Counted from the first letter of the stretch, positions 5,638 to 37,389 are shown. The stretch is DNA of 64,000 bases from an uncultured Anaerolineales bacterium (GCA_964627755.1 CAZVIH010000064.1:29383-93382), one strand, 5' to 3'. Program-made: numbers and translations. Notes: a model not told the origin generated them from the letters alone.

Positions 5638-5658
5638 TAGTATTATGTGATGTTTTTA

Positions 5659-7037: not shown

Positions 7038-7146
7038 AGTTCATCTCCTCTGCTCGTAAATATGCGACAAAAAACAACTCATATAATTTCGATGAAAATG
7101 ATATCACATGAATATTGGAGAACTAGGAGTCAGGAAGAGTTTTAAC

Positions 7147-7185
7147 TACCGACAGGTGTTCTTCTTAACAGAACACCTGTCGGTA
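7147..7185 (-). terminator. Strong hairpin, probable terminator
   Basis: Perfect 16-bp stem TACCGACAGGTGTTCT/AGAACACCTGTCGGTA, 9 nt after the stop of the 7195..8175 gene. Confidence 0.7.
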
Positions 7186-7194
7186 AATTAGAAG

Positions 7195-8175: not shown

Positions 8176-8474
8176 GAGTACTCCTTACGATATGATCCAT
8201 TTGATGATTATGCATTAGAAATATATACGGGAAAATGGTTGGGAGGTTGCAGGTCGAATCAAGTTTCCTGGGCTTGTGATAGGAATTGCCCACTCTAGTG
8301 GTTCTTCAAGGGCATAGTAATGGCATAATATTATTCCTGTTTCTTAGATCAAATTACGAACGATTAAGCCCGTATATCGAATCCAGGGAATTGAGATAAA
8401 ATCAGATGTAATAGTGATCCAAGGGAATTTCCCCCTCTGATAAATGTTATAAAAACTTGTCGAAGGAGTACGCC

Positions 8475-24961: not shown

Positions 24962-25901
24962 GGAACTGACAACAACATTAGTACAGAATATTGAAAAAGT
25001 AATCATCGGCAAACGGCGGGCTGTTCAGCTGGTTGTGCTGGGGTTGATCTGTGAAGGCCACGTCCTGATCGAAGATGTGCCCGGTGTCGGAAAAACTATG
25101 CTGGCCCGGAGTTTGGCGCGCTCTTTGAATTGCTCCTTCAGCAGAATCCAGTGCACTCCAGATATGCTGCCGAGTGATATTACAGGGGTAGAAATCTATG
25201 ATCAATCCACCGGCGAATTCAGATTCTTACCTGGTCCGATCCTCAACCAGATCATTCTGGCAGATGAAATCAACCGGGCCACGCCCAAAACCCAGTCAGC
25301 TTTATTGGAAGCGATGCAGGAGCGACAGGTAACGGTTAGCGGTGAAACACATCTAATTCCGAAACCTTTTATGGTGTTGGCTACCCAAAACCCGATCGAG
25401 TATGAGGGAACTTTCCCTCTCCCGGAAGCCCAGCTGGACCGTTTTATGGTTAAAGTTAATATTGGGTATCCCGGAATTACAGAAGAAATTGCTGTTATAG
25501 CAAATCAGCAAACCGCCCACCCGATTGATTCCATTCAGCAAGTGACTAATCCAGAGAAGATCATTGAAGTTCAAGAACGGGTTAAAGAGGTATATATTGC
25601 TGAATCTATTAAAAAATATATTGTTGAAATCACCCAGGAAACTCGCTCTGCGGATTCTGTATACCTGGGAGCCAGTCCAAGGGGAAGTTTAGCTCTAGCA
25701 CGAGCTAGTCAGGCTTGGGCTGCGATGTACGGGCGTAAGTTTGTGATCCCGGATGATGTTAAGTTGCTGGCCGAGTCAACTCTGGGGCACCGCGTGATCC
25801 TCAGTTCATCCGCCAGGCTGCAGGAATTGCGAACCGGAGATCTGATCCGAGAAATATTGCGTAATGTACCTGTTCCTGGAGGAGATTTTCGAGGTGAGTA
25901 G
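24948..25901 (+). CDS. MoxR family AAA+ ATPase
   Basis: DVPGVGKT, ADEINRATPKTQSALLEAM, GASPR. Alternative start at 24936. Confidence 0.95.
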   Translation: METVKELTTTLVQNIEKVIIGKRRAVQLVVLGLICEGHVLIEDVPGVGKTMLARSLARSLNCSFSRIQCTPDMLPSDITGVEIYDQSTGEFRFLPGPILNQIILADEINRATPKTQSALLEAMQERQVTVSGETHLIPKPFMVLATQNPIEYEGTFPLPEAQLDRFMVKVNIGYPGITEEIAVIANQQTAHPIDSIQQVTNPEKIIEVQERVKEVYIAESIKKYIVEITQETRSADSVYLGASPRGSLALARASQAWAAMYGRKFVIPDDVKLLAESTLGHRVILSSSARLQELRTGDLIREILRNVPVPGGDFRGE

Positions 25902-26115
25902 GGATTTAAGGGAATATTCAAAGAACACAAAAACCCGCTTGATTCTAGGATTTTTAGCCTTGATCTTCCTGGTTGGAGATGGGTTGATCTTTTTATTTTA
26001 CGGTAAAGAATCCGGGATCCTCAGCCTGATTTGTACCCTAGGGGCGCTGATACCAGTAGGGCTGATCATAATATTCCTGGTGATCGCGGACAGGGTAGTG
26101 AAGAAAAACCAGTAG
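25894..26115 (+). CDS. Small 2-TM hypothetical membrane protein
   Basis: GTG start after GGAGGAG; MSRDLREYS followed by two hydrophobic helices. Confidence 0.6.
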   Translation: MSRDLREYSKNTKTRLILGFLALIFLVGDGLIFLFYGKESGILSLICTLGALIPVGLIIIFLVIADRVVKKNQ

Positions 26116-26145: not shown

Positions 26146-26179
26146 ATAAATACGGCATCCGAAAGGATGCCGTATTTAT
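26146..26179. terminator. Bidirectional intrinsic terminator
   Basis: ATAAATACGGCATCC-GAAA-GGATGCCGTATTTAT between convergent genes. Confidence 0.85.
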
Positions 26180-26180
26180 T

Positions 26181-28052
26181 TTATACCAGTGTTTGATTGA
26201 GGATCTCTACGATGTCAAATACCTTTATGTCTTCTGCCAGACCCTTTGAGCGCAAAGCGTCGTCAAACATGATTAAGCAGTATGGGCAAGCTGTAGTTAT
26301 TGTATCCGCTTTTAGATCTAGGGCTTGCTGCAACCGATGATGATTAATACGGGTATCTGCAGCTGTTTCCAACCACATGGCACCTCCGCCACCGCCACAG
26401 CAGAAGCTCTCTTGTTTGGCCGCTTTCATTTCGAGTGGGGTCAGATTAGCTTTATTGAGCAAGTCCCGTGGCTGAGAATAGATCTTGTTGTACCGGCCTA
26501 AATAACAGGAGTCATGGAAGGTGAGTCTACCTAATTCTTGGGAGCCGGAACCCTGGAACTGGAGTCCGGGCAGTAACTCAGCCAGGAATTCCACAGCATG
26601 CTGGACCTGAAAATCTCCACCAAATGAAGGGTATTCGTTTTTCAGTGTATTCAATCCATGTGGACAGAGTGTAATAATCTTCTTAAATTGAATTTCAGAG
26701 AATACAGCTATATTCTCCTCGGCAGCTACTTGGAATAGATATTCATTTCCCATCCTGCGGGCAGTTTCGCCGCAGCACATTTCTGCATCTCCAAGAATGC
26801 CGTAATCGACTTTAAGCTTGTTAAGGATTTCAATGAAAGCCCGGGTGACTTTTTGGTTGCGATCGTCGAAGGCGCCAGCGCAGCCGATGAAATAGAGAAC
26901 ATCAACCTTGTCTCCCGGGGAGAGTACTCTGACATCTAATCCATCAGCCCAACTCATCCGATTCTGGGCTGGCATGCCCCAGGGATTTCCCTGGCGTTCA
27001 AAATTCCTCAGTGTTTCACCAACAGTTTGAGGGACTTCTCCTGTCATTAGGACTTGCGCTCTCCGGATGTCAATAACTTGCTCGGGAGGGCGAATAAATG
27101 CCGGGCAGACATCCAGACAGTGGCCGCAGGTTGTGCATGACCAGAGAAATTCTTCCTCCAGTAATTGTGATTGGAACTCATTTTTACTGTCTTTTTGAGG
27201 GGAAATCAAAACAGAAGCCATATTATCCCTGAGCATCAACAGCAATTTTCTGGGTGAATAGGTCAATCCGCTGTTTGTAGCCGGGCAAACCTCTTCGCAG
27301 CGGCCGCACTGCAGGCAGGAATCGAACGCAAGTAAACTTAATGAGGAAAACTCATTGACGGTAGAAGTTCCCAGAACTTCCGCATCCATGATATCCCGAA
27401 TGGTCTCAAGCTCACCTGCAGACCGATCGGACTTCATAAAAATATGGAATGGTGTGAAGATCATATGGCGCATTTTTGTGAAAGGTATACTGGCAGCGAG
27501 CAGCAATCCCAACCCAACATGCAATATGAAAATGTATGAATGGATTGTATTTGCTCCTGAGGGGGAGAGGGCCATTTTTCTCAGTAGAATTGCGACCCAA
27601 TTTCCGATTGGCGACCAGTTGGCCCAGGTAGGATCCCAGATTAAAATTCGGAGTCCTTCAGTGAAGAAACCTACCAGGGGAATACATGCCAGCAGGATCA
27701 AGGCATAAATATCATCCCACGAGTTTTCCATAAATTTTGGACGAATAGCAAGGCGTCTGACTAGAGCCATGATCACACCCACCAGGATGGCAGCGCCTGC
27801 CAGGTCCATGATCAGTTCATAGCCCAAATATACACCTTTGGAAAACAGAGGCCATGTAAAGGGTACAAATAAACCCATTTGCATGATCTTTATGGCTGTA
27901 CCAATCAACTGAATGATAACGCCCCAAAAGATCATAAGATGCATTATTCCGGGATAGATCTTTTTAATCGTCCGGAACTGGCCAAGAGCATAAAGAAGAA
28001 CATCGCCAAGGCGAGACCAGGGTTTTGAAATTCGTTGTTCAGTAGTTGTCAT
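26181..28052 (-). CDS. Membrane heme-b/Fe-S oxidoreductase of the heterodisulfide-reductase family (NarI-like + 2x[4Fe-4S] + 2 CCG; EMO/FadF-like)
   Basis: TM domain with His residues (MHLMIFWG, IHSYIFILH, KMRH); CLQCGRCEEVCP, CTTCGHCLDVCP; GNPWG; MCCGE, FHDSCYLGR, FCCGGGGG, ACPYC. Confidence 0.9.
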   Translation of the reverse strand: MTTTEQRISKPWSRLGDVLLYALGQFRTIKKIYPGIMHLMIFWGVIIQLIGTAIKIMQMGLFVPFTWPLFSKGVYLGYELIMDLAGAAILVGVIMALVRRLAIRPKFMENSWDDIYALILLACIPLVGFFTEGLRILIWDPTWANWSPIGNWVAILLRKMALSPSGANTIHSYIFILHVGLGLLLAASIPFTKMRHMIFTPFHIFMKSDRSAGELETIRDIMDAEVLGTSTVNEFSSLSLLAFDSCLQCGRCEEVCPATNSGLTYSPRKLLLMLRDNMASVLISPQKDSKNEFQSQLLEEEFLWSCTTCGHCLDVCPAFIRPPEQVIDIRRAQVLMTGEVPQTVGETLRNFERQGNPWGMPAQNRMSWADGLDVRVLSPGDKVDVLYFIGCAGAFDDRNQKVTRAFIEILNKLKVDYGILGDAEMCCGETARRMGNEYLFQVAAEENIAVFSEIQFKKIITLCPHGLNTLKNEYPSFGGDFQVQHAVEFLAELLPGLQFQGSGSQELGRLTFHDSCYLGRYNKIYSQPRDLLNKANLTPLEMKAAKQESFCCGGGGGAMWLETAADTRINHHRLQQALDLKADTITTACPYCLIMFDDALRSKGLAEDIKVFDIVEILNQTLV

Positions 28053-28483
28053 GCAGATCCTCCGATGAAAATCTCGCCATCTACGATCGTCAGGGGAATT
28101 TTTTCCAGTGGTGTTGGAGGTGGGCCAGAGATAACTCCACCTTCATAGGGCTCAAAAAAACCTTCATGGCACGGACAATGAATTACCTGGTCAGCAACGT
28201 CCCATTTGCAGATGCATGCAAAATGAGTGCAAACAGCAGAATAAGCCCGGAGGCCTTTGTCCGTATTGATAACAAGAGCCGGGTAGCGCCCAAAAGGAAT
28301 TGTCAGGCTTTCTCCCTGCGGGATATCATCAACTGTGCCTACCCTCACGGGATCTGCGGGGGTTTCTTCCAGGCTGGGAGGATAGAGATAGGCAATAAAA
28401 GGGGCCAGCAATGCAGTAAAACCGGTAGCTGCCAATCCCTTTTTAAGCACGTTTAGGAAGTCTCGACGCGAAATCTCACTCAT
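28049..28483 (-). CDS. Rieske [2Fe-2S] subunit of a cytochrome bc/b6f-type complex
   Basis: Tat motif SRRDFL; CTHFAC and CPCHEG boxes; GPPPTPL. Confidence 0.93.
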   Translation of the reverse strand: MSEISRRDFLNVLKKGLAATGFTALLAPFIAYLYPPSLEETPADPVRVGTVDDIPQGESLTIPFGRYPALVINTDKGLRAYSAVCTHFACICKWDVADQVIHCPCHEGFFEPYEGGVISGPPPTPLEKIPLTIVDGEIFIGGSA

Positions 28484-28879
28484 TTAGCTCACCTCCCCCC
28501 AGATAGTCAGGGCGATAATGATCACAACTGCTATTAGTGATAACCAGAATCTCGTCCTGACCGTCTTTTTCGACTGGTCTGGTTTCTGATCGAGAAAGGG
28601 CCAGATCATGAGCAGGACGATCGCCAGGACTGGCGAAGTCGCACCAATTGTTTCTGGAATAAAACGCAAGAGTTGATATAAGGCCAGAAAATACCATTCA
28701 GGTTTGATATGAAGCGGGGTTTCCATAGGATCTGCAGGTGCACCCAATCCGACGGGGGCAAACAGGCCGATCACACCGATTACAACAACCAGAATGACAA
28801 CTCCCAGGGCGACTTTGGCTTCTAAGGCTACATGGTCCGGGTAAAAAGGAACACCCTTCTCTTGATTGTTTTCAGACAT
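28484..28879 (-). CDS. Cytochrome b6f subunit IV-like (PetD / cytochrome b C-terminal) protein
   Basis: PFYPDH, PADPMETPLHIKPEWYFL (Qo-site PEWY), WPFLD; 3 TM. Confidence 0.9.
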   Translation of the reverse strand: MSENNQEKGVPFYPDHVALEAKVALGVVILVVVIGVIGLFAPVGLGAPADPMETPLHIKPEWYFLALYQLLRFIPETIGATSPVLAIVLLMIWPFLDQKPDQSKKTVRTRFWLSLIAVVIIIALTIWGEVS

Positions 28880-28923
28880 CAGATTACTCCCATTTATTCA
28901 AGCTCTCTAGCACTAACTCGTTG

Positions 28924-29886
28924 TTAGAGTGGTTTCATCAGACCTTGTTTGCGGATCATGATGAAATGCAAACCCATCGCCCCGACTGTAATTAACGGTA
29001 GGATCAGGATATGGCCAGCGAAAAATCGGCTTAATGTAAGACTGGTAATACTCCATCCGCCTCTTAAGAAAACCAGAGCTAGGTCTCCGATGATTGGAAT
29101 ACTTCCTCCAATCTCTGTACCGACTGTAGTTGCCCAGTATGCTCTCTGGTCCCAGGGAAGCAAATACCCCGTGAATCCGAACGCCAGAGTCATAATTAAC
29201 AGTGATACGCCTGAAACCCAATTCAGCTCCCTGGGCGGTTTGTATGCTCCCATAATAAATACACGCAGCATGTGCGCAAAGGCCATGACAATCATTCCAT
29301 TGGCAGACCAATGGTGGACCATGCGAAATGCCGATCCGAGCAGCACCTCATTTTCTATAAATTGGATGCTGGCGTAAGCTTCGGTAGGGGTCGGTTTGTA
29401 ATAAAAGGCTAACATGATGCCGGTTACACCCTGGACGAGGAAAAGGAAGAAAGTCAATCCTCCCAGGCAGTACCACCAACGCCGCTGCCAATCGGGTACA
29501 GGTTTTGCCAGGATGGGTTTCATAAATTCTGATAATTGATAACGCTCATCAACCCAGGAGAGGATCCGTGTTGGAATAGGAATCCATTTCTCTCTGGATC
29601 GCCAGACACTGGCGCTGCGGGCGATGCCGAAGAGAAGGATTAATCCAGCCCCGCCAAACAGGACCCAGCGACCCAGCGGCGTCCAGATGTTAGTGAATTC
29701 CTCATCGACGTGGCATTGGATGCAGGTATCTTTCTCAGGTTCCGGTGGGGCTTGGGTAATCAGATCAGTGCCATATCCTGAGGAAGATTGATTCGCCGTT
29801 GTATAGGCGTGAACACCTGCAGCTGTGGCAAGGACTAGTATTGCGCTGAGAGCCACAATCAGGATTGTACGGTAAATAGATTTCAT
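28924..29886 (-). CDS. Cytochrome b6-type subunit with N-terminal signal peptide and CxxCH heme-c motif
   Basis: YCLGG (heme ci Cys), HHWSAN...AHMLR, GYLLPWDQ, GH-x14-H; N-terminal CIQCH. Confidence 0.92.
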   Translation of the reverse strand: MKSIYRTILIVALSAILVLATAAGVHAYTTANQSSSGYGTDLITQAPPEPEKDTCIQCHVDEEFTNIWTPLGRWVLFGGAGLILLFGIARSASVWRSREKWIPIPTRILSWVDERYQLSEFMKPILAKPVPDWQRRWWYCLGGLTFFLFLVQGVTGIMLAFYYKPTPTEAYASIQFIENEVLLGSAFRMVHHWSANGMIVMAFAHMLRVFIMGAYKPPRELNWVSGVSLLIMTLAFGFTGYLLPWDQRAYWATTVGTEIGGSIPIIGDLALVFLRGGWSITSLTLSRFFAGHILILPLITVGAMGLHFIMIRKQGLMKPL

Positions 29887-30142
29887 ATAAAACCTCGTCT
29901 GCGCTGAATACAGTGAGACTTAAACCGCAACTATTAAGATTTCAATCAGGAATGAGTTTGATGTTATCCATTCAGCAGGTACCCTCTGTTGAGCAATGTC
30001 TGGATTGATGATCAAAGGAAATACAGGTTGGCAGTATTTTCCCTGATCAAAATGGGTTACATCAATAGATGATAAAAATATAACATAATTCAACCGGTAA
30101 TACAGGTGTCATTCTTCATAAGGGGGCTAAACTTGGAGTCAT

Positions 30143-30637
30143 TCAGCGGATTGTAAAAGAGAATTCCTCGAGAATCTGAGCCACAACTATAGGGATCGCT
30201 TTTGCGACCGCAGGTGTGGGGGTTTCACTGAATTCGAGGATATTTTCAACTTCAACAGCATAAATGCTGAATTCTCCCGGAATTTGATAACCCATCTTTT
30301 CTGCAGCGTCCAGGGCGGTGACCAAAGAAGTGTCATGGGCAGATGTGCTGTGCTGAGTAGGTGATACTGACCTCAGATCATCTAGGCTTAGATGATGGAT
30401 TGTTCCGGGAGTGCTTGACTCGGGATTCAGATAAAAGGCATCGATCAGGATCACCCGTTCATACCCCAACAACGATTCCATCAAGCGCAGCCCACCAGCG
30501 CTGGCTTCAGTGATTGTCAGCTCCGGATGTGCTTCCAGGTTGATCTGCTTTTCCAGTTCGAGGGCGACTTTTACACCTACTCCGTCGTCAGTGAGAATTG
30601 GATTACCCAGACCGATTATTAGTGTTTTCTTATCCAT
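30143..30637 (-). CDS. Hydrogenase maturation protease
   Basis: GLGNPILTDDGVG, ILIDA, SAHD; lies after mvhA. Confidence 0.93.
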   Translation of the reverse strand: MDKKTLIIGLGNPILTDDGVGVKVALELEKQINLEAHPELTITEASAGGLRLMESLLGYERVILIDAFYLNPESSTPGTIHHLSLDDLRSVSPTQHSTSAHDTSLVTALDAAEKMGYQIPGEFSIYAVEVENILEFSETPTPAVAKAIPIVVAQILEEFSFTIR

Positions 30638-30644
30638 AATAAAA

Positions 30645-30688
30645 AGGTAACCAGCTCCCAGAAATGATTCTCTGTTCACTGGTTACCT
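30645..30688 (-). terminator. Terminator-like hairpin between mvhA and the protease gene
   Basis: Minus strand AGGTAACCAG...CTGGTTACCT followed by TTTT. Confidence 0.5.
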
Positions 30689-30722
30689 ATAATTCTACAC
30701 GGATTTTTATGAGTTTATCTCA

Positions 30723-32210
30723 TCAATCGATATATTGACTCTGGGTACCGATCAAATTACCCTCTGCGTCCTTGATTTGCACTTCCAGGGGCATCTGGCC
30801 AGGTAACGAGTGAGTTGCGCAGGACATACAGGGATCGTAATTCCTGAAAGCCATCTCGATTGTGTTGAGAAGACCCTCGCTGACTACTCCGCCTTTTATC
30901 AGCCCCTCAGCTGCCTTTTTGATAGACATGGCAATTGGGGCGTTGTTATTGGTTGTGCCGACGATCAGGTTGACGTCTGTCAAAATGCCATTCTCATCTG
31001 TTTTATAGTGGTGGGTTAATGTACCGCGGGGAGCTTCCACGCTTCCAACACCTTCAGTGGGGGTATTAGTAACGATCGGCCGTACATTGGGATCCAGAAT
31101 CTCCGGATCATTGGCTAGCTCTTGCATCCGCTCAGCGGCGTAGAGCAGTTCTACTAACCTGGCCCAATGAGTCGCCAGTCGGTGATGTACAGGAGCATAA
31201 AGCCCGGCGGTTTTTTGGGAGCCAAGGGTTTCGTAGAATCTTTCATAATGTTCCTGGGCTTTGGGAGTTGCCATGCCGTCGGCTGCATTCAGGCGGGATA
31301 GGGGAGTTGCACAGTAGACGCCACTGTCAACGCCATCAACAAAACCATTCCATCCCACATCTTTCAGGTAGGGGAATTTCAGGTAGGACCATGGTTCTAC
31401 CCGCTCAGCGATATGCTGCGCGTAATCCTTAGAAGGATATTTGACCAGCTCCTTACCCTCAGGACCAACGACCCGGATCAATCCATCATAGAAATTGATC
31501 TGATTCTTATCATCAACGGTGCCCATGTAATAAGTCTTGTGCGTGAAAGCATCGGAGACTATCAGGTCCACATAAGCCTGGTTTGCCAGAACGATATCGT
31601 CAAAGATCTTGAGACTGAAGAGCGCAAAATCGATATTCTTTTGAGAGAAATCAAGGATGGTATCTCGTTCCTCTTTGGTCAGGGATTTACTCCAACCACC
31701 TGGTAACCCCGCAACAGGGTGAACACCACGCCCTCCGAGCATTTTGATGACTTCGTGATTTCTTTTCCTGCACTCGATTACCTGGATTCCGATATCCACG
31801 CCCACTTTGTGAATTACACCCAGGATATTCCGTTCTGCTGGGTTTGAATCCGGACCCAGAACAAAGTCAGGGCCTCCCAGAGCGTAGAAGTGGACTGTGT
31901 GGTCAGTGACATAAAAGGCAGAGTAGAAAAGCTCCCTCAGCTTCTTAACAACTGGTGCAGGGTCGATGTCAAAAAGAGCATCCAGGGCTTTGGTGGCAGC
32001 CATATGGTGTGCTTCAGGGCAGACACCGCAGATCCGGTTTGTGATGCGGGGCATTTCCTCTGCAGGTCGGCCAATTGAGAACTGTTCAAAACCCCGCAAT
32101 TCGGGGATTTGCAGATAGGCATTCTTAACATCGCCTTCTTCGTTGAGGAAGATCTCAATCTTTCCATGGCCTTCCAGTCTGGTTATTGGATCTATGGTTA
32201 TACGTTCCAT
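30723..32210 (-). CDS. mvhA: [NiFe]-hydrogenase group 3c large subunit MvhA
   Basis: TRLEGHG, L1 RICGVCPEAHH, EAPRG, L2 DPCMSCATH plus a cleavable C-terminal tail. Confidence 0.93.
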   Translation of the reverse strand: MERITIDPITRLEGHGKIEIFLNEEGDVKNAYLQIPELRGFEQFSIGRPAEEMPRITNRICGVCPEAHHMAATKALDALFDIDPAPVVKKLRELFYSAFYVTDHTVHFYALGGPDFVLGPDSNPAERNILGVIHKVGVDIGIQVIECRKRNHEVIKMLGGRGVHPVAGLPGGWSKSLTKEERDTILDFSQKNIDFALFSLKIFDDIVLANQAYVDLIVSDAFTHKTYYMGTVDDKNQINFYDGLIRVVGPEGKELVKYPSKDYAQHIAERVEPWSYLKFPYLKDVGWNGFVDGVDSGVYCATPLSRLNAADGMATPKAQEHYERFYETLGSQKTAGLYAPVHHRLATHWARLVELLYAAERMQELANDPEILDPNVRPIVTNTPTEGVGSVEAPRGTLTHHYKTDENGILTDVNLIVGTTNNNAPIAMSIKKAAEGLIKGGVVSEGLLNTIEMAFRNYDPCMSCATHSLPGQMPLEVQIKDAEGNLIGTQSQYID

Positions 32211-33229
32211 TAAACAGCTCCTTTGCCATTCTTGACACGTTTAAGGATAGAATGCGCCATGCTGAAGCGGTAGAAAGTCCCAACAGGATCGGCGATGGTA
32301 TCCACCGCTTCCTGGATCAGTTCTTCCAGCTTATCTTCTTCCATGGACTCATCACCCACGTCAAGAACGGAAGCAATTGCGGACAGCATTTTGGCTCCCT
32401 GGTCCTCCACTCCATCAGGAGGACCATAACAACCTCGGCACCCGATACCAACGGATGGGCATAAGGCACCGCATCCTGCCCGGGTTGCTATCCCCAGACA
32501 AATAATTCCTTGTTCCAGCAGGCATTGATCCGGGTCTGGTTGAATTTCGTAAGGACGATAAAATCGCTTGATCGTCTTCTCGTGTTTCTCTCGGCTGCAT
32601 TCTTCACAGAGCGCGGTTGTTCCGGCACCTAAGATCGCGCCTGCGGGTGGAAGTGGAAGCCCTTCAGTCAGGGCACCAACGACAACTTGCAGTACGGCCC
32701 AGATCTGGTGAGGTTCAGGTGGACATCCAGGGATGTAATAATCCACATCTATTACCTGGTCTAGGGATTTTACTGTGTGATAGAAATTTGGCAGGAACAA
32801 ATCACCTTCGTCCACCTTGCTAACCAATTGAGGGAAGATGCCGTCCGGATTGTCAATCGTGGGATTGTCAATATAAACCTTATTGAACGTGGCTTCCTTT
32901 GTTGTAAGGTTTGAGAGGGCCGGGATACAGCCTTCGTAGGCACAAGATCCAAAAGCCACCAATACCTTGGATTTCTTCCGGAGAAGGTGAGCCATTTCCT
33001 CATTTTCTGAATTGCGGATAGCACCGTTGAATAAACACAGATCGATATAACCATCAGGATAAGATTCCAAATCCTTGATCTTAAAATCCGCGATGCAGGG
33101 GAAAAAGACGATCTCAAAAACCTCATCTACGGTCAGGATATTCTCATGGATGTTCAACACTGAGATTTCGCAGCCACCGCAGGATGAAGCCCAGTACATG
33201 GCCAGTTTTGGTTTTCCATTACCTGTCAT
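32210..33229 (-). CDS. mvhG: [NiFe]-hydrogenase small subunit MvhG
   Basis: SCGGCE, FGSCA, PGCPP, CLLEQGIICLG, CGALC, CRGCYG; no Tat signal. Confidence 0.92.
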   Translation of the reverse strand: MTGNGKPKLAMYWASSCGGCEISVLNIHENILTVDEVFEIVFFPCIADFKIKDLESYPDGYIDLCLFNGAIRNSENEEMAHLLRKKSKVLVAFGSCAYEGCIPALSNLTTKEATFNKVYIDNPTIDNPDGIFPQLVSKVDEGDLFLPNFYHTVKSLDQVIDVDYYIPGCPPEPHQIWAVLQVVVGALTEGLPLPPAGAILGAGTTALCEECSREKHEKTIKRFYRPYEIQPDPDQCLLEQGIICLGIATRAGCGALCPSVGIGCRGCYGPPDGVEDQGAKMLSAIASVLDVGDESMEEDKLEELIQEAVDTIADPVGTFYRFSMAHSILKRVKNGKGAV

Positions 33230-33695
33230 GTTGTGCCTCCTGTATAACTGCGTAAGCAGCAGCCCTGTTATCTATTAATACTTTTTCTCCCCAGCGAAGG
33301 GGGCCTAAAGCCCGAACCTCTTCTGTCATCCGGGTCACAGCTGCTGCCAGGACAGTCCCCTCCGAAGCGGAAGCCCATAGGAGCTGAACCCGTTCGTCTT
33401 CGATGCCCCATTGTTCCATGGTCTTTTTCAAAAGCATGAAGCGCCGCAGAGCTTTTATGTTTCCGTTGACGTAATGACATTCTCCTGGGTGGCATCCGGC
33501 AATCAGAACACCATCAGCACCGCTTCGCAAAGCCTGGAGAACAAATTGTGGATCCACTCTACCGGAACACATTACGCGTATAGGTCGTAAATTTGGTGCA
33601 TATTTGATCCGGGCTGTTCCTGCAAGGTCGGCTGCTCGGTAGGAGCACCAATTGCATAGAAAACCTACGATCACAGGTTCAAATTGATCATTCAT
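33219..33695 (-). CDS. mvhD: Hydrogenase [2Fe-2S] subunit MvhD
   Basis: FLCNWCSY, MCSGRVD, GCHPGECHY. Confidence 0.95.
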   Translation of the reverse strand: MNDQFEPVIVGFLCNWCSYRAADLAGTARIKYAPNLRPIRVMCSGRVDPQFVLQALRSGADGVLIAGCHPGECHYVNGNIKALRRFMLLKKTMEQWGIEDERVQLLWASASEGTVLAAAVTRMTEEVRALGPLRWGEKVLIDNRAAAYAVIQEAQHDR

Positions 33696-35725
33696 AAAAC
33701 CTCCTGCTTCACTGAGACCTCACCCTGTGCATCCCAGAGGATTCCATTTAATTCAGCAAAAATTTGTGTGTTAGTGAAGTGTGCCCCATCGATAACTCCT
33801 GATGGACAGCCCGCAACGCAGGTGCCGCAGCCCTGGCACAGGGCAGTGATCACCCGGGATACACCCTTTTCCTCATCAAACTCGATCGCGTTGTAAGGAC
33901 AGAGTGTATTGCAGATCCGGCATCCAGAGCACTCATCCTCTCTGATACTCGCCCGGACCGGTTCCATCAGCACCGTGCCCTGGCTGATGAGTTTTGCAAC
34001 CTGTGATGCAGCGGCTCCTCCCTGGGCAACTGTATCAGGAATGTCTTTTGGTCCCTGGCAAGCGCCGGCGATAAAAACGCCATCAGTCATCGTGGAAACC
34101 GGAGCAAGTTTGGGGTGCCGCTCATTGAAGAAACCGTCGTAATCGCAGCCCATCTTGAAGAGCTTTGATACTTCTTCCGCGTCATGCCTGGCTTCAACTC
34201 CAGCACTAAGGATCACCATGTCCACCGGAGTTCTTTGCTGCTTGCCAATCAATGTGTTTTCCGCCTGGACGATCAGTTTATTTTCTTCTCCTGCACGACA
34301 GGCAGCTCCAGTAATTTCCGCTACGCGACCGCGTATGAAATGTGTACCTTCCTTCAGCAGCCGGTGGTAAAACTCTTCATAACCTTTGCCGGGTGTCCGC
34401 ATGTCGATATAGTAGTTATATACTTCTGCTTCGGGCAGATGTTCATGAACCAGGTGGGCAAATTTGAGAGAGTACATACAGCAAACTTTTGAGCAGTACT
34501 CGTTATGGTTCTGATCGCGGGATCCAACACAGTGAACGATTGCCACGCTTTTTGGATGTGTGATCCCATCCCGGAGAACGATGTGACCTTCTGTTGGCCC
34601 AGAAGCATTAACCATTCGTTCAAATTCCAGGCTGGAAAAGACATTAGCCAATCTGCCGTAACCGTACTGGGGGATTTTTCGGGCGTCAAAAAGATCATAA
34701 CCAGTTGCCAGGATGATGTTGCCCACATCGAAATTGATCATCTCGTCCTGCTGTTCATAATCAATTGCGTTGGTTGGGCAGACTGTTTCGCAAATTTTGC
34801 ACTTTCCGGTTTGGAAATAAGTGCAGTTCTCTTTATCTAGAACGGGATAACCAGGAACTGCCTGGGGAAATGCCCGGTAAATGGATTTTCTGTAGCCAAG
34901 ACCCGCTCCGTAATTATCATCGATTACTTTCTGAGGGCATTTTTCCTCACAGATACCGCAGGAAGTGCATAATTCCTCATTCACGCAGCGGGCTTTTTTC
35001 TTAACAGTGATATTGAAGTCGCCGATATGTCCATCAACACTTTCAACCTCGCTGTAAGTCAATAAGGTGATATTGTCATTCTGTCCAACATCCACCATCT
35101 TGGGGGTCAGGATACAGGCAGAGCAATCCAGGGTTGGGAACGTCTTATCGATCTGAGCCATGTGCCCGCCGATCGTGCCGTCTCTTTCCACCAGATATAC
35201 ATGATGGCCAGCTTCTGCAAGTTCAAGCGCCGCAGTGATGCCGGCGATACCGCCGCCAACGATCAATGTATTGGGATTAATCGAGACTTGGATCTTCTCC
35301 AGAGGGACATGATGGACGACCCGCTCAACAGCACCATTGACCAATGCTTTGGCTTTAACAGTGGCTGCAACCTTATCGTTGGTTGCCCAGGATCCATGCT
35401 CACGAATATTTGCCATTTCGAAGAGGAATGGATTTAAACCTCCGCGTTTTGTGGTCTCCCGAAATGTTTTCTCATGCATGTGCGGAGAACAGGAAGCAAC
35501 AACTATCCTGGTTAGTCCTTTTTCCTTAATATCGTTTTCGATCAACTCCTGACCTGTGCTGGAACACATGAATTCATATGTGCGTGCAACAGCAACATTG
35601 GGGTTATTCTCTGCCCACTTTGCGACTTCCTTAACATCTATTGTTCCTGCGATATTGGAACCGCAATGACATACGTAAACGCCTACTCTTTCACGTTCTG
35701 CGGGGGATTTTTTCATATCAGTCAT
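33692..35725 (-). CDS. hdrA: Heterodisulfide reductase subunit A (FAD, electron bifurcating)
   Basis: VCHCGSNI, GGGIAG, KTFPTLDCSAC, HCVGSRD, CSKVCCMYS and two ferredoxin-type domains. Confidence 0.95.
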   Translation of the reverse strand: MTDMKKSPAERERVGVYVCHCGSNIAGTIDVKEVAKWAENNPNVAVARTYEFMCSSTGQELIENDIKEKGLTRIVVASCSPHMHEKTFRETTKRGGLNPFLFEMANIREHGSWATNDKVAATVKAKALVNGAVERVVHHVPLEKIQVSINPNTLIVGGGIAGITAALELAEAGHHVYLVERDGTIGGHMAQIDKTFPTLDCSACILTPKMVDVGQNDNITLLTYSEVESVDGHIGDFNITVKKKARCVNEELCTSCGICEEKCPQKVIDDNYGAGLGYRKSIYRAFPQAVPGYPVLDKENCTYFQTGKCKICETVCPTNAIDYEQQDEMINFDVGNIILATGYDLFDARKIPQYGYGRLANVFSSLEFERMVNASGPTEGHIVLRDGITHPKSVAIVHCVGSRDQNHNEYCSKVCCMYSLKFAHLVHEHLPEAEVYNYYIDMRTPGKGYEEFYHRLLKEGTHFIRGRVAEITGAACRAGEENKLIVQAENTLIGKQQRTPVDMVILSAGVEARHDAEEVSKLFKMGCDYDGFFNERHPKLAPVSTMTDGVFIAGACQGPKDIPDTVAQGGAAASQVAKLISQGTVLMEPVRASIREDECSGCRICNTLCPYNAIEFDEEKGVSRVITALCQGCGTCVAGCPSGVIDGAHFTNTQIFAELNGILWDAQGEVSVKQEVL

Positions 35726-35728
35726 GGA

Positions 35729-36685
35729 TTATCCCTCCTCCGCCATAATTGGCATGGGTAAGCCGGTTTTCTTCTCACGGATTCGTTTTGGTTTAGGTGC
35801 CTCGTTTGTGATCTTCTCCAGGACTGGTTTGGCGGGAACGATTTCCTTGCCAAAACCAAGTTCCTCGGCGGGGATGTCAAAGGCTATACCCATTAGCTGG
35901 GTAAAGTAGACGATTGGTATTTTATAGTTGGTGCCAAATTGGGCGTTGACAGCATCCTGATATGCGTCCAAATTAAGTTGACACATTGGACAAAGAGTGG
36001 CGATCAGATCAGCCTCGCAGTCTGCAGCGTTTTTCAACAGACGCCTGATCAATTCCAGAGCAGTTTCTTCGCTGATCTGTGTCATATGACCACCGCAGCA
36101 TTGGGCCTTGAGGGGATAATCAATCACTGTCGCACCCAAGACCTCCAGAATTTTATCCATAGATGTTGGGTGTTCTGGATCATCAAAACTTTCCATTGAG
36201 GCCGGACGGGGAACCAGGCACCCATAGTAAGGTGCAACCCGCAGGTTGTAGAGAGGTTTCTTTACCTGGGCTTTGATGGCATCAAAGCCGATATCAACCA
36301 CCATGGTTTCCAGGAGGTGCTGTACGTTTATAGAACCGGGTTCATAACTTAAACCTCCCGCTTCCAGGGCTAGGTCCACTTTTCCCCTCAGCTCCTCATT
36401 TTCCTGAAGGTAATGGTCAACCTTTTTGAGGTTCAAGTAACAGGCACTGCAGGGGGCGACGAGGTTCTCGCTGCTATTTTGATCAGCTGCCAGCGCAAGG
36501 TTTCTGGATACCAATGCGTAAGCCGGAATTTTATTGATGGCGATATACTCAGTGGCACCGCAGCAATTCCAGTCATCAACTTCGACAAATTCAATGCCAA
36601 GCGGCTTGGCTACTGCCAGCGTTGAGGTGTGGTAAGCCCGGGCATTTTTTTCCATCGAACAACCCGGATAATATCCATATTTCAT
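35729..36685 (-). CDS. hdrB: Heterodisulfide reductase subunit B
   Basis: YYPGC, WNCCG, CSAC, YYGC, QCCGG, CPMC (two CCG domains). Confidence 0.95.
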   Translation of the reverse strand: MKYGYYPGCSMEKNARAYHTSTLAVAKPLGIEFVEVDDWNCCGATEYIAINKIPAYALVSRNLALAADQNSSENLVAPCSACYLNLKKVDHYLQENEELRGKVDLALEAGGLSYEPGSINVQHLLETMVVDIGFDAIKAQVKKPLYNLRVAPYYGCLVPRPASMESFDDPEHPTSMDKILEVLGATVIDYPLKAQCCGGHMTQISEETALELIRRLLKNAADCEADLIATLCPMCQLNLDAYQDAVNAQFGTNYKIPIVYFTQLMGIAFDIPAEELGFGKEIVPAKPVLEKITNEAPKPKRIREKKTGLPMPIMAEEG

Positions 36686-37266
36686 GCTGCACCTCCCAGC
36701 TCTTTGGCCTTTTTAATGATGGCTTTCAATTGAGGAAGATTTTTAATCTTAGTTGGAATAAAATCCATCCGGCCTTTTGTGATCATTTTCAGCCCCATCC
36801 CAGTAGCAAGTTTTACCGCACTCAGCGGATGGTAGCGCAAATGGTGCCTCATCACGACGCCCATTTCAAAACTGCGTCCGTTGTTTTCAACCAGGTCCAT
36901 AAAGGTTTCCGAGAATTCGGGCGCTTTGTCTTTGTCGATCTCCCTAAAATATCCCGCCTCAATGGCCATGCGCTTTAATGTGTACATGATATCCGTGATC
37001 GGGATCTCCTGGGGACAACGGACCATGCAGTAATAACATGAGACACAAAACCAGGGTGTGTTGCTTGTTAATACTTCTTCCTCCATCTCAGAGTCGATCA
37101 TTGCAAAAAGGGTCCGTGGACTGTGATCCATATCTGGCCCGGATGGGCAGGATCCAGAACAAGTACCGCACTGGATGCAGGTATATAAGTTACTTGCCTT
37201 TCCAGGAGTTTCTGCGATAATCTTGTCTATCAAGGTGGGGGGGCGAGACGTGAAAGTATCGGTCAT
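36682..37266 (-). CDS. hdrC: Heterodisulfide reductase subunit C
   Basis: CIQCGTCSGSCP, CVSCYYCMVRCP; GAGGAGG RBS before ATG 37266. Confidence 0.93.
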   Translation of the reverse strand: MTDTFTSRPPTLIDKIIAETPGKASNLYTCIQCGTCSGSCPSGPDMDHSPRTLFAMIDSEMEEEVLTSNTPWFCVSCYYCMVRCPQEIPITDIMYTLKRMAIEAGYFREIDKDKAPEFSETFMDLVENNGRSFEMGVVMRHHLRYHPLSAVKLATGMGLKMITKGRMDFIPTKIKNLPQLKAIIKKAKELGGAA

Positions 37267-37389
37267 ACCAGCCTCCTCAAAACTCAAAAATAGATGAGAT
37301 TTACTTTTCTCCTAAATTAATTAATAATCAGAGTTCATGAAACTGATAAGGAATACCTGTCTAGTATAGTAAATCGATATATATTCTTA

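What the first reader, a model, noticed from the sequence alone, without database searches (positions are those of the whole stretch)
26181..37266. HdrABC-MvhADG bifurcating hydrogenase co-located with a Rieske/cytochrome b6 complex and an EMO-like membrane oxidoreductase
Seen: 11 consecutive minus-strand genes, hdrC-hdrB-hdrA-mvhD-mvhG-mvhA-protease-cyt b-subunit IV-Rieske-(NarI/Fe-S/CCG protein), mostly abutting or overlapping and ending at a strong terminator (26146-26179). Known: MvhADG-HdrABC is the soluble flavin-based electron-bifurcating complex of methanogens, and Rieske/cyt b complexes perform quinone-based bifurcation (Q-cycle). Inference: in this apparently non-methanogenic bacterium the cluster may wire H2 oxidation and ferredoxin reduction to the menaquinone pool through a thiol/disulfide shuttle between HdrB and the CCG domains of the membrane protein. 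That would place both kinds of bifurcation in one locus. I do not know of a characterised system with this composition.
Basis: partly seen in the sequence, partly recalled or inferred. Interest (0 to 1): 0.88.

Follow-up and report, generated by a model that had tools for sequence, protein, structure and literature searches.

The report
Rieske/cytochrome b operon with EtfD-like subunit
A salt-marsh Chloroflexota genome carries a hydrogenase/heterodisulfide-reductase operon next to an undescribed respiratory operon that joins a Rieske/cytochrome b6 complex to an EtfD-like membrane iron-sulfur protein, and the two are separable units rather than one proven machine.

Summary
Eleven minus-strand genes lie at 26181-37287: hdrCBA-mvhDGA-protease, a 256-bp gap, cytochrome c-b6 fusion, subunit IV, Rieske protein, and a fused NarI/2x[4Fe-4S]/2xCCG protein. 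They end at a strong hairpin.

The host is an Anaerolineales (Chloroflexota) MAG.

The conserved unit is the four-gene Rieske/cyt b + EMO/EtfD-like operon. The EMO-like gene follows the Rieske gene in 88 of 88 assessable loci, across six families.

The Hdr/Mvh operon lies 5.2 kb or less upstream in 27 of 37 assessable loci of one clade (family f1 plus f18). It does so in 0 of 44 loci in four other families, where it stands alone elsewhere in the genome. The closest relative has lost hdrCBA-mvhDGA but kept the respiratory operon. The gap holds a genus-invariant promoter-like motif.

The membrane protein matches mycobacterial EtfD (E 3.6e-92). In characterised members of that family the CCG clusters act as electron wires, not disulfide reductases, which weakens the thiol-shuttle idea.

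I read this as two juxtaposed operons. The second is a new variant of Rieske/cyt b complex. Functional coupling of the two halves is possible but unproven.

The parts
36682..37287 (-). hdrC-like gene (2x[4Fe-4S]); an alternative ATG start lies at 37266
   Evidence: Two CxxCxxCxxxCP motifs at residues 37 and 81.
35729..36685 (-). hdrB-like gene with two complete CCG motifs (10 Cys)
   Evidence: Pfam CCG E 4.3e-26. TIGR03288 scores 203 bits, under its cut-off of 345. CCG at residues 41 and 196, CxxC at 79 and 232.
33692..35725 (-). hdrA-like flavoprotein (FAD-binding region plus ferredoxin-type domains)
   Evidence: NF040770 HdrA2 scores 822 bits, under its cut-off of 1100. GGGIAG at residue 157 and three CxxCxxCxxxCP motifs.
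33219..33695 (-). mvhD
   Evidence: Pfam FlpD E 1.4e-52.
32210..33229 (-). mvhG, [NiFe]-hydrogenase small subunit
   Evidence: Pfam Oxidored_q6 E 2.3e-25. NF045875 VhuG scores 229 bits, under its cut-off of 450. A 190-nt contig of an RNA library lies at 32699-32888.
30723..32210 (-). mvhA, [NiFe]-hydrogenase large subunit
   Evidence: Pfam NiFeSe_Hases. NF041785 VhuA scores 388 bits, under its cut-off of 800. RICGVC at residue 59 and DPCMSC at 459. A 196-nt contig of an RNA library lies at 31529-31724.
30143..30679 (-). hydrogenase maturation endopeptidase (HycI/HybD family)
   Evidence: TIGR00072 scores 104.6 bits, over its cut-off of 47.45.
30075..30118 (-). Conserved promoter/operator-like element inside the 256-bp gap: box 1 TGAAGAATGACAC (30106-30118) and box 2 TATGTTATATTTT (30075-30087)
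   Evidence: Invariant in 7 of 7 aligned genus loci. Box 1 occurs once exactly in the 3.08-Mb genome. It is present with 2 or fewer mismatches in 22 of 27 assessable genus loci, each time with box 2 starting 31 or 33 nt after the start of box 1, including G373, which lacks Hdr/Mvh. The region has no stable RNA fold (z -0.14). Its function is inferred.
28924..29886 (-). Cytochrome b6 with an N-terminal extension: signal peptide, one CxxCH haem c motif, one extra TM helix
   Evidence: CIQCH at residues 55-59 is invariant in 13 of 13 orthologs. H191/H205/H292/H307 and C140 are invariant. C140 aligns to Cys35 of b6 chain 1vf5_A. The best PDB match is cytochrome b6, E 3.2e-61.
28484..28879 (-). Subunit IV (PetD-like)
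   Evidence: Pfam Cytochrom_B_C E 7.1e-18. In PEWY at residues 60-63, W62 and Y63 are invariant and P60 and E61 are kept in at least 90% of 16 sequences.
28049..28483 (-). Rieske [2Fe-2S] protein with a twin-arginine signal
   Evidence: Pfam Rieske. SRRDFL, CTHFAC and CPCH read from the translation. The best PDB match is a b6f iron-sulfur subunit, 8hn2_A, E 5e-19.
26181..28052 (-). EMO/EtfD-like fusion: NarI-type haem b membrane domain, 2 cubane [4Fe-4S] motifs, 2 CCG (non-cubane cluster) domains
   Evidence: Pfam. PDB 9ojn_A, M. smegmatis EtfD, E 3.6e-92. H38, H178 and H196 align to EtfD H78, H223 and H241. H38, H171, H178, H196 and all cluster cysteines are invariant in 16 orthologs.
26146..26179 (.). 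Intrinsic terminator hairpin with A-rich and T-rich flanks; it probably serves both convergent units
   Evidence: Sequence. Fold -26.2 kcal/mol, z -7.9.

Best explanation
The locus holds two separable operons that have been placed side by side in one Anaerolineales clade.

Operon 1 is hdrCBA-mvhDGA-protease. It encodes a cytoplasmic group-3c-type [NiFe]-hydrogenase/HdrABC module. All metal-ligand motifs are intact. Its physiological disulfide or other acceptor is unknown.

Operon 2 is cyt c-b6, subunit IV, Rieske and an EMO-like protein. It is an undescribed variant of a Rieske/cytochrome b6 complex.
- The usual c1/f cytochrome is replaced by a single haem c motif fused to the N-terminus of cytochrome b6.
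- A fourth gene encodes an EtfD/EMO-type protein: a NarI-type haem b anchor, two cubane clusters and two non-cubane clusters.

Most likely working (inferred): the EMO-like subunit is an electron wire between a cytoplasmic redox protein and the quinone pool. The Rieske/b6 part then oxidises the quinol by a Q cycle. It has an intact PEWY Qo motif, four b-haem histidines and the haem cn cysteine. It passes electrons to its own haem c and on to periplasmic carriers or oxidases. The two are probably held close together, as a quinone-reducing and a quinol-oxidising module in one assembly.

Candidate cytoplasmic partners are ETF in general, an FrhB-like Fe-S protein encoded after the EMO-like gene in other families, and perhaps Hdr/Mvh in this family.

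Operon 2 has its own conserved promoter-like element, so the two operons are probably transcribed separately. Coupling to Hdr/Mvh is optional and clade-specific, not a built-in feature.
For: SHOWN
- Domains and motifs of all 11 genes.
- The four-gene order cyt b, subunit IV, Rieske, EMO-like is kept wherever it can be assessed: EMO-like in 88 of 88 loci and Rieske in 92 of 93, out of 97 loci examined from six families.
- Orthologs of the c-b6 fusion (E <= 1e-90) occur in 89 of 401 sampled Anaerolineales genomes, 28 of 123 genera. In a phylum-wide draw they occur in 2 of 401 genomes, both Anaerolineales.
- Of the best 80 cyt b loci in a GTDB-wide scan, 6 have the EMO-like neighbour and the reversed gene order. 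All 6 are Chloroflexota. The other 74 have no EMO-like hit.
- Hdr/Mvh linkage: 27 of 37 assessable loci in f1+f18, against 0 of 44 in f7/f8/f14/f16. All linked rows fall in one clade of 33 rows, support 95.
- Complete stand-alone hdrCBA-mvhDGA-protease operons were found in 5 of 5 f8/f16 genomes fetched. In G009, of the window's own genus, the operon lies on another contig.
- G373 (cyt b 92% identical): tkt abuts a protease remnant (128 of 178 residues align). There is no hdr/mvh and there are no Ns in the locus.
- Gap motif.
- EMO/EtfD homology and haem ligands. Supporting papers: PMC13083937 (section 8 read) and 10.64898/2026.08.18.745454 (sections 5, 6, 10 read).
- Physical contact of the EMO-like TM domain (residues 1-240) with cyt b6 + subunit IV: complex prediction gave WEAK support only. 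Score 0.38 (runs 0.38/0.31/0.42), best control 0.01, contact agreement at least 34%, partner pLDDT at least 72. The mark was reached by 58 of 80 solved complexes and 2 of 110 mismatched pairs. At 0.60 or under it was reached by only 7 of those 80 and by both mismatches.
- The genome has respiratory outlets: one haem-copper oxidase, one cytochrome bd, and three further cyt b loci with c-type cytochromes.

INFERRED
- The direction of electron flow.
- The identity of the cytoplasmic partner.
- That the four proteins form one complex.
- That the gap motif is a promoter.
Against: - No transcript data cover the gap or operon 2. The one RNA library held only two clean short contigs, in mvhA and mvhG, and DNA can be present in such libraries. 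No terminator was found between the protease gene and cyt b, so read-through from operon 1 is not excluded.
- Within f1+f18 the juxtaposition is kept in several genera (g1, g19 in part, g21, g24, g25, g26). That is more than a fleeting accident and could reflect selection for co-expression.
- The FrhB-like gene 'F' is absent where Hdr/Mvh abuts. Of 69 loci assessable for both: linked with F 1, linked without F 22, unlinked with F 37, neither 9. This would fit Hdr/Mvh having replaced F as the partner. With relatedness allowed for, only 4-5 independent pairs remain and the sign test gives p about 0.5.
- The complex prediction is weak. It used a monomer, although Rieske/cyt b complexes are dimers.
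- The quinone is not identified. No MqnA/D and no MenD were found, and MenA-like hits are under the cut-off, in a genome 96% complete.
- In this genome etfBA genes lie on other contigs, next to FixCX-like and acyl-CoA dehydrogenase genes. ETF as the partner is therefore not supported by neighbourhood here.
Confidence: 0.6

Rival explanations
1. All 11 genes form one system in which H2 oxidation and ferredoxin reduction by Mvh-Hdr are wired to the quinone pool through a soluble thiol/disulfide shuttle. HdrB reduces the disulfide and the CCG domains of the membrane protein re-oxidise the thiols.
For: - The adjacency is kept in 27 of 37 assessable loci of f1+f18.
- HdrB has all 10 cysteines of a catalytic HdrB.
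- Thermodynamics would allow thiol to menaquinone transfer for a CoM-S-S-CoB-like couple: -143 mV against -80 mV, values quoted in PMC4683180 (passages read).
Against: - The membrane protein is of the EMO/EtfD type (E 3.6e-92 to 9ojn_A). For that family the authors state that the non-cubane clusters are not catalytic sites (10.64898/2026.08.18.745454, section 10).
- Its first CCG motif carries 4, not 5, cysteines in this family: CPHG instead of CPHC.
- The halves are unlinked in 0-of-44 fashion in four families.
- G373 has lost Hdr/Mvh but kept the membrane operon.
- The gap has its own promoter-like motif.
- No candidate thiol cofactor was identified.
Confidence: 0.08
2. Direct docking. In family f1 the Hdr/Mvh complex has replaced the FrhB-like protein 'F' as the cytoplasmic protein partner of the EMO-like subunit. 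H2-derived (or H2-forming) electrons then pass protein to protein into or out of the quinone/Rieske-b6 system, without a soluble shuttle.
For: - F follows the EMO-like gene in 21 of 22 assessable f16 loci, 11 of 17 in f8, 3 of 4 in f7 and 9 of 10 in g19. It does so in 0 of 21 in g1 and 0 of 4 in g21/g24/g25/f18, where Hdr/Mvh abuts.
- Within g19, the one locus with directly abutting Hdr/Mvh (G150) is the one lacking F.
- In the EMO family the partner is a protein, ETF, that docks on the non-cubane cluster domain (10.64898/2026.08.18.745454, abstract and section 5).
Against: - G390 and G406 have both F and an upstream Hdr/Mvh.
- Nine loci have neither.
- The independent-pairs test is not significant (p about 0.5, 4-5 pairs).
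- G373 and G009 keep the membrane operon with neither F nor an adjacent Hdr/Mvh.
Confidence: 0.15
3. Electron exit rather than entry. Quinol oxidation at the Qo site is bifurcated. One branch (the low-potential b-haem chain, or the Rieske/haem c branch via the distal haem of the NarI-type domain) is led through the EMO-like Fe-S wire to a cytoplasmic acceptor. The complex would then be a quinol-driven reductase of a cytoplasmic substrate. By my recall, a similar idea has been proposed for anammox Rieske/cyt b complexes with NAD(P)-reducing subunits.
For: - The EMO-like TM domain keeps the distal-haem histidine (H178) plus an extra invariant H171, so a transmembrane haem path is possible.
- Non-canonical Rieske/cyt b complexes with extra subunits are recognised (PMC4683180, passages citing ten Brink 2013).
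Against: - In S. aciditrophicus EMO the haems titrate at -80 and -220 mV (preprint, section 6).
- A Rieske/haem c branch would be far more positive (+285 mV for the ubiquinol-type Rieske protein, quoted in PMC5861303). By my recall, menaquinol types are lower but still positive.
- Inward electron transfer would also work against the membrane potential.
- No acceptor is evident.
Confidence: 0.1

Closest known systems
EMO / EtfD (ETF:(methyl)menaquinone oxidoreductase; S. aciditrophicus EMO and M. smegmatis EtfD, PDB 9OJN)
   Same: - Single polypeptide made of a NarI-type haem b domain, two cubane [4Fe-4S] clusters and two CCG/non-cubane cluster domains.
- The three family histidines are present and align to the structurally defined ligands.
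- E 3.6e-92 to 9ojn_A.
   Different: - The gene sits in a Rieske/cyt b operon, not beside etfAB.
- It lacks the long disordered C-terminal tail of EtfD (623 against 1042 residues).
- The first CCG motif is C..CC..CPHG, that is 4 Cys. EtfD has a single Cys in place of CC, and CPHC.
- It has an extra invariant H171.
- Its partner is unknown.
Cytochrome b6f / b6c-type Rieske/cyt b complexes (cyanobacteria; by recall also Bacillota and heliobacteria)
   Same: - Split cytochrome b6 plus subunit IV.
- Four b-haem histidines.
- A Cys aligned to the haem cn ligand Cys35.
- PEWY motif.
- Tat-dependent Rieske protein.
   Different: - Gene order is b6, subunit IV, Rieske, instead of Rieske, b6, subunit IV as in the other 74 loci.
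- There is no separate cytochrome f/c1 or dihaem c. Instead one CxxCH sits on an N-terminal extension of b6 with an extra TM helix.
- There is an extra EMO-like subunit gene.
MvhADG-HdrABC of hydrogenotrophic methanogens
   Same: Same seven-gene content and all cofactor-binding motifs.
   Different: - The host is a bacterium with no methanogenesis.
- All archaeal equivalog models score below their curated cut-offs.
- The substrate of HdrB is unknown.
- The operon is widespread in the order: mvhA (E <= 1e-60) in 249 of 401 genomes.
Non-canonical Rieske/cyt b complexes with extra subunits (Methanoperedens cluster MPEBLZ_00816-00823; by recall anammox R/b-2/3 and the haloarchaeal Nar-linked complex)
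   Same: A Rieske/cyt b core encoded with lineage-specific extra redox subunits (PMC4683180, passages read).
   Different: There the additions are multihaem c cytochromes, or by recall NAD(P)-linked or HAO-like subunits. None is reported with an EMO/HdrD-like NarI-Fe-S-CCG subunit.
Quinone reductases associated with complex III-type enzymes: the Streptomyces Nar1-bcc-aa3 co-purification and the mammalian ETFDH-CIII metabolon
   Same: Precedents for a NarI-anchored enzyme, or an ETF dehydrogenase, working in physical association with a Rieske/cyt b complex. For PMC7931247 and PMC10896730 I saw only the search listing and the start of the abstract.
   Different: These are not homologous arrangements. 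They are not encoded in one operon, and ETFDH is unrelated to EMO.

Membership tests
EMO/EtfD (NarI-type membrane Fe-S oxidoreductase) | Three conserved histidines of the TM domain: proximal haem pair plus distal haem ligand, the latter 18 residues before the second proximal ligand | tested here: met
   H38, H196 and H178 align to EtfD H78, H241 and H223. They are invariant in 16 of 16 orthologs. The ligand roles come from PMC13083937 section 8 and the preprint, section 6.
EMO/EtfD (NarI-type membrane Fe-S oxidoreductase) | Two cubane [4Fe-4S] motifs followed by two CCG/non-cubane cluster domains in one chain | tested here: met
   Pfam Fer4_8/10 and 2x CCG. C246/249/252/256, C306/309/312/316, C391, C426, C427, C463, C516, C551, C552, C589 and C592 are invariant.
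EMO/EtfD (NarI-type membrane Fe-S oxidoreductase) | Works with ETF (gene next to etfAB; ETF docks on the non-cubane cluster domain) | tested here: not met
   In G000 the etfBA pairs lie on contigs C7 and C18, beside FixCX-like and acyl-CoA dehydrogenase genes. Only neighbourhood was tested; docking and activity are not testable here. In G009 an etfBA plus a second EMO-like paralog lie just upstream.
HdrDE / DsrMK-type membrane disulfide reductase | Two full CCG motifs (C, CC, CxxC = 10 Cys) forming a catalytic pair of non-cubane clusters | tested here: not met
   There are 9 Cys. The first motif ends CPHG in family f1. The DsrK, HmcF and TmcB models score 42-45 bits against cut-offs of 400-750.
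Rieske/cytochrome b6-type complex | Cytochrome b with four haem-ligand histidines, split into b6 and subunit IV | tested here: met
   H191, H205, H292 and H307 are invariant. Pfam Cytochrome_B and Cytochrom_B_C fall on separate ORFs. The PDB b6 match has E 3.2e-61.
Rieske/cytochrome b6-type complex | Qo-site PEWY motif and haem cn cysteine | tested here: met
   PEWY at residues 60-63 of subunit IV is conserved. C140 aligns to b6 Cys35. That Cys35 binds haem cn is recalled from the b6f structures.
Rieske/cytochrome b6-type complex | Rieske protein with CxHxxC...CxCH boxes and a Tat signal | tested here: met
   CTHFAC, CPCH and SRRDFL were read from the translation. Pfam Rieske E 5e-12. PDB b6f iron-sulfur protein match E 5e-19.
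Rieske/cytochrome b6-type complex | A separate c-type cytochrome subunit (f, c1 or dihaem c) encoded with the core | tested here: not met
   There is no such ORF in the operon. Instead a CxxCH lies at residues 55-59 of the b6 N-terminal extension, invariant in 13 of 13. The canonical paralog on contig C96 does have a dihaem subunit IV fusion.
MvhADG-HdrABC | [NiFe] large-subunit cysteine motifs, small subunit, MvhD, HdrA flavoprotein, HdrB with 10 Cys, HdrC with 2 clusters | tested here: met
   RICGVC and DPCMSC; FlpD E 1.4e-52; GGGIAG; 2x CCG plus 2x CxxC.
MvhADG-HdrABC | [quoted passage not shown] | tested here: not met
   Every NCBIfam equivalog scores below its cut-off, for example VhuA 388 against 800, HdrA2 822 against 1100, HdrB 203 against 345. 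Activity is not testable with these tools.

The most novel reading that the evidence does not exclude
The EMO-like protein is a true subunit of the Rieske/cytochrome b6 complex. One membrane machine would then connect a cytoplasmic iron-sulfur wire directly to a Q-cycle enzyme. The wire would be served by Hdr/Mvh in this family and by an FrhB-like flavo-Fe-S protein in others. Such a machine would join flavin-based and quinone-based electron bifurcation. It could either inject H2- or ETF-derived electrons next to the Qi/haem cn site, or draw quinol-derived low-potential electrons into the cytoplasm.
Probability: 0.15. Interest if true: 0.9.

Novelty: new variant of a known kind. Interest (0 to 1): 0.6.

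Why it matters
Rieske/cytochrome b complexes are known to pick up lineage-specific subunits. EMO/EtfD proteins were solved structurally only in 2025-2026.

An operon that pairs the two, kept in 88 of 88 assessable loci over six Anaerolineales families, points to a new way of feeding or tapping a Q-cycle enzyme. Anaerolineales are abundant sediment bacteria whose energy metabolism is mostly inferred from genomes.

It also gives a concrete, testable case for the open question of what HdrABC-MvhADG does in non-methanogens. Here its linkage to a membrane complex is present in one clade and absent in sister clades, which offers natural controls.

If the two modules turn out to be merely neighbours, the finding is a useful annotation correction. 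The 'HdrD/NarI/CCG' gene is an EtfD-type protein, not a heterodisulfide reductase.

Tried and rejected
RNA evidence for co-transcription. The one RNA library found (X17, share 0.05) gave five laid contigs. Only two are clean full-length pieces, in mvhA and mvhG. Nothing lay on the gap or on operon 2, which is no evidence either way.

The gap motif as a terminator or a structured RNA.
- The fold has z -0.14, and 87 of 200 shuffles fold as well.
- RNAalifold gives -7.5 kcal/mol with almost no covariation.
- Rfam gives only an RsmY match at E 0.22, far under its gathering score.
- I rejected this reading.

The gap motif shared with the hdrC promoter or with other genes. There is 1 exact copy in the genome and 2 copies at 1 mismatch or fewer. 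I rejected this reading.

F versus Hdr/Mvh as mutually exclusive partners. The raw table is striking, but the independent-pairs test is not significant. I keep it only as a rival.

Menaquinone pathway. MqnA/D and MenD were not found, and MenA-like hits are under the cut-off. The quinone stays unidentified.

NrfA was not found.

Literature. Six searches found no paper that describes a Rieske/cyt b operon with an EMO/EtfD/HdrD-like gene. The EMO preprint's main text has 0 occurrences of 'Rieske', 'cytochrome bc' or 'Chloroflex'. Its Supplementary Table 2 and Supplementary Figs 13-14 (phylogeny with associated modules) could hold such a clade, but supplements are closed. Ten Brink et al. 2013 is not held.

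Full report
WHAT IS THERE

The window is G000:C64:29383-93382 of a 3.08-Mb, 110-contig genome, 96.4% complete and 0.6% contaminated. Titles of the nearest public records name Chloroflexota/Anaerolineales MAGs. Near-identical DNA is held by salt-marsh metagenome runs.

Between 26181 and 37287 lie eleven minus-strand ORFs. Pfam and NCBIfam assign them as follows:
- HdrC, HdrB and HdrA
- MvhD, MvhG and MvhA
- a HycI/HybD-type maturation protease
- cytochrome b (N-terminal half type)
- subunit IV
- a Rieske protein
- a 623-aa fusion of a NarI-like domain, two ferredoxin-type cluster motifs and two CCG domains

Junctions are overlaps of 1-11 nt or gaps of 0-44 nt, except for one 256-bp gap (29887-30142). 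The unit ends at a hairpin of -26.2 kcal/mol (z -7.9). The hairpin faces a convergent MoxR/transglutaminase unit. On the other side, a divergent tkt-rpiB pair starts at 37637.

Contigs of another public DNA run cover the whole stretch, and one of them bridges the gap.

THE HDR/MVH HALF

All ligand motifs are intact:
- MvhA has RICGVC and DPCMSC.
- HdrB has two full C...CCG...CxxC motifs (10 Cys).
- HdrA has a GGGIAG dinucleotide fold and three ferredoxin motifs.
- HdrC has two cluster motifs.

Every archaeal equivalog model scores below its curated cut-off. This is a bacterial relative, not a methanogen enzyme.

The module is common in the order: mvhA (E <= 1e-60) occurs in 249 of 401 sampled genomes. 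Complete hdrCBA-mvhDGA-protease operons stand alone in 5 of 5 genomes fetched from families f8 and f16. The same is true on a separate contig of G009, a member of the window's own genus. In G381 and G009 the operon is also divergent from tkt, as in the window. The tkt/hdr arrangement therefore occurs with and without the join to the cytochrome genes.

THE RIESKE/CYT B HALF

The cytochrome b is of the b6 type.
- Its best PDB matches are cytochromes b6 (E 3.2e-61).
- The four haem histidines are invariant in 13 orthologs.
- C140 is also invariant and aligns to b6 Cys35. By recall, Cys35 is the haem cn ligand.
- Subunit IV keeps PEWY.
- The Rieske protein has SRRDFL, CTHFAC and CPCH.

Two things are unusual.

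First, b6 carries a 100-residue N-terminal extension. It holds a signal peptide, one CxxCH (C55/C58/H59, invariant in 13 of 13) and one extra TM helix. No separate c-type cytochrome gene is present.

Second, the gene order is b6, subunit IV, Rieske, followed by the fusion protein. In a GTDB-wide scan, 600 or more stretches matched and the best 80 were kept. Six of the 80 loci have this order and this neighbour, and all six are Chloroflexota. The other 74 have no EMO-like hit, and in nearly all of those with a detectable Rieske gene it lies upstream of cyt b.

THE FUSION PROTEIN IS AN EMO/ETFD

Its best solved relative is M. smegmatis EtfD (9ojn_A, E 3.6e-92).
- H38 and H196 align to the haem ligands H78 and H241 of EtfD.
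- H178 aligns to H223. H223 is the third family-conserved histidine, and its counterpart ligates the distal haem in S. aciditrophicus EMO (PMC13083937 section 8; preprint 10.64898/2026.08.18.745454 sections 5-6).
- In 16 orthologs these histidines, an extra H171, both cubane motifs and the CCG cysteines are invariant.
- The first CCG motif has four cysteines in family f1 (CPHG). In the other families it reads CPHC or CAHC.

The preprint states that in EMO the non-cubane clusters are not catalytic but pass electrons from ETF to the quinone pool (section 10). NCBIfam has no model that reaches its cut-off. The best is TfrB, at 170 bits against a cut-off of 385.

In G000 this is the only full-length EMO-like gene. 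Its two etfBA pairs lie elsewhere, with FixCX-like and acyl-CoA dehydrogenase genes.

HOW THE TWO HALVES TRAVEL

I fetched about 9.5 kb on each side of the cyt b ortholog in 96 relatives and compared them with the window: 97 loci in all.
- The EMO-like gene follows the Rieske gene in 88 of 88 loci with enough downstream DNA.
- The Rieske gene is in place in 92 of 93. The exception, G011, has an insertion and then the contig ends.

mvhA lies 5.2 kb or less upstream on the same strand as follows:

| Group | Linked / assessable |
|---|---|
| g1 | 21 of 25 |
| g19 | 2 of 8 |
| g21, g24, g25, f18 | 1 of 1 each |
| f14 | 0 of 2 |
| f16 | 0 of 20 |
| f7 | 0 of 3 |
| f8 | 0 of 19 |

In G279 and G163 the two genes sit 162 and 153 kb apart on one contig (coordinates). 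On a tree of cyt b + EMO-like sequences (78 of the 97 loci; FastTree), every linked locus falls in one clade of 33 rows, support 95. That clade holds all f1 and f18 rows.

Within that clade the link has been lost several times.
- In G373 (cyt b 92% identical to the window's), tkt abuts a 128-residue remnant of the protease gene, and hdrCBA-mvhDGA are gone.
- In G009 the upstream genes are a soluble HdrD-like protein, etfB, etfA and a split second EMO-like paralog.
- In most g19 genomes Hdr/Mvh is not within 9.5 kb.

Outside f1+f18 the operon usually has a fifth gene, 'F', of about 350 aa. It gives weak FrhB_FdhB_C matches and has two ferredoxin motifs.
- F is present in 21 of 22 assessable loci in f16, 11 of 17 in f8, 3 of 4 in f7, 1 of 2 in f14 and 9 of 10 in g19.
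- It is present in 0 of 21 in g1.
- In f16 and f7 a NarL-type response regulator lies upstream of cyt b in 24 of 26 assessable loci, and in many of these a histidine kinase gene precedes it.

The anticorrelation of F with an abutting Hdr/Mvh is suggestive: linked with F 1, linked without F 22, unlinked with F 37, neither 9. It is not significant once relatedness is allowed for (4-5 independent pairs, p about 0.5).

THE GAP

Seven genus loci share an invariant TGAAGAATGACAC, and 31 nt after its start a TATGTTATATTTT.
- Box 1 is unique in the genome.
- It is present with 2 or fewer mismatches in 22 of 27 assessable g1 loci, each time with box 2 starting 31 or 33 nt after the start of box 1. That includes G373, which has no Hdr/Mvh.
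- It is present in 0 of 69 loci outside the genus.
- It does not fold stably, and no Rfam family matches.

I read it as the promoter/operator of the cytochrome operon. This is an inference. No terminator was found after the protease gene, so read-through is not excluded.

DO THE MEMBRANE PROTEINS TOUCH?

One complex job tested b6 + subunit IV against the EMO-like TM domain, residues 1-240. It gave weak support.
- Score 0.38, best control 0.01.
- Contact agreement at least 34%; partner pLDDT at least 72.
- The mark was reached by 58 of 80 solved complexes and 2 of 110 mismatched pairs. At 0.60 or under it was reached by only 7 of those 80 and by both mismatches.

It raises my odds slightly and proves nothing.

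CONTEXT IN THE GENOME

The genome also holds:
- three further cyt b loci, one of them a canonical Rieske, b6, subunit IV/dihaem c set
- a haem-copper oxidase and a cytochrome bd
- a second Hdr-like cluster

So this is a respiring bacterium. Quinone biosynthesis markers were not found.

VERDICT

The gene content is as described, and the label 'EMO-like' is right. The locus is best read as two autonomous operons joined in one clade.

The new thing is the Rieske/b6-EMO operon, an undescribed variant of a modular enzyme family. It was found in 89 of 401 sampled Anaerolineales genomes. In a phylum-wide draw of 401 it was found in no genome outside that order.

The proposed thiol shuttle is unlikely. 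Direct coupling of Hdr/Mvh to the membrane complex in this clade remains possible and testable.

I found no description of the operon in six literature searches. Supplements that might show it could not be opened.

Noticed in passing
L028, L029, L030, L032, L033, L035, L040, L140 (relatives of the same genus), hdrC/hdrB positions: In eight same-genus genomes (G002, G003, G010, G012, G020, G023, G024, G051) hdrB and/or hdrC are only 36-47% identical to the window's, while the adjacent hdrA is 72-74% and mvhA 82-88% identical. Two alternative HdrBC types therefore seem to be swapped in front of the same HdrA within one genus.
   Followed up: partly
L043 13137-14162; L049 13754-14791; L048 4101-5078 (other families): A cysteine-rich gene of about 350 aa ('F') directly follows the EMO-like gene outside the window's genus. 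It gives weak FrhB_FdhB_C matches and has two ferredoxin motifs. There is no tblastn hit in G000. It is a candidate cytoplasmic partner of the EMO-like protein.
   Followed up: partly
L043 3576-9060 and 14448-15845; L049 8973-9626 and 15015-16430: In family f16 the operon is preceded by a NarL-type response regulator, often with a histidine kinase. It is flanked by a dihydrolipoamide dehydrogenase-like gene. In L043 it is also flanked by 2-oxoacid dehydrogenase E1 and E2 genes.
   Followed up: partly
L137 (G373) 6568-9232: The closest relative shows a clean deletion of hdrCBA-mvhDGA and the 5' third of the protease gene. tkt is left next to the protease remnant, and the gap motif is intact.
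   Followed up: yes
L039 (G009) 1409-6467: A canonical-looking cluster lies directly upstream of the Rieske/cyt b operon in a same-genus genome. It comprises a soluble HdrD-like protein, etfB, etfA and a second EMO-like gene split into two ORFs.
   Followed up: yes
G000 contig C33:30000-39000 (L133): A second Hdr-related cluster. It comprises a 1061-aa GltD/NfnB-like Fe-S flavoprotein, MvhD, a soluble HdrD-like protein, and an HdrA-like protein apparently split over two ORFs (200 and 649 aa), the longer carrying a C-terminal MvhD domain.
   Followed up: partly
G000 contigs C96, C50, C13 (L134-L136): Three further cytochrome b loci: a canonical Rieske, b6, subunit IV/dihaem c set; a 568-aa fused cyt b with one CxxCH; and a 352-aa cyt b next to an ORF with eight CxxCH motifs.
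   Followed up: partly
G022:C10:49872-51356 (mvhA ortholog); G160:C41:10036-11001 (cyt b ortholog): There is one in-frame TGA inside the mvhA ortholog of G022 and one in-frame TAG inside the cyt b ortholog of G160. The TGA could be a selenocysteine, a sequencing error or a pseudogene. I did not examine it.
   Followed up: no
L042 (G022) between protease and cyt b; L038 (G011) between cyt b and subunit IV: There are insertions of about 1.6 kb (G022) and about 1 kb (G011) inside the otherwise fixed gene order. Their content was not examined.
   Followed up: no
whole genome G000: No MqnA/D and no MenD were found, and MenA-like hits are only under the cut-off. Yet the genome has four cyt b genes, a bd oxidase and a haem-copper oxidase. 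The quinone and its pathway are unidentified.
   Followed up: partly
window 25864-26115 (+): A small 83-aa ORF lies between the MoxR gene and the shared hairpin terminator. It was not annotated.
   Followed up: no
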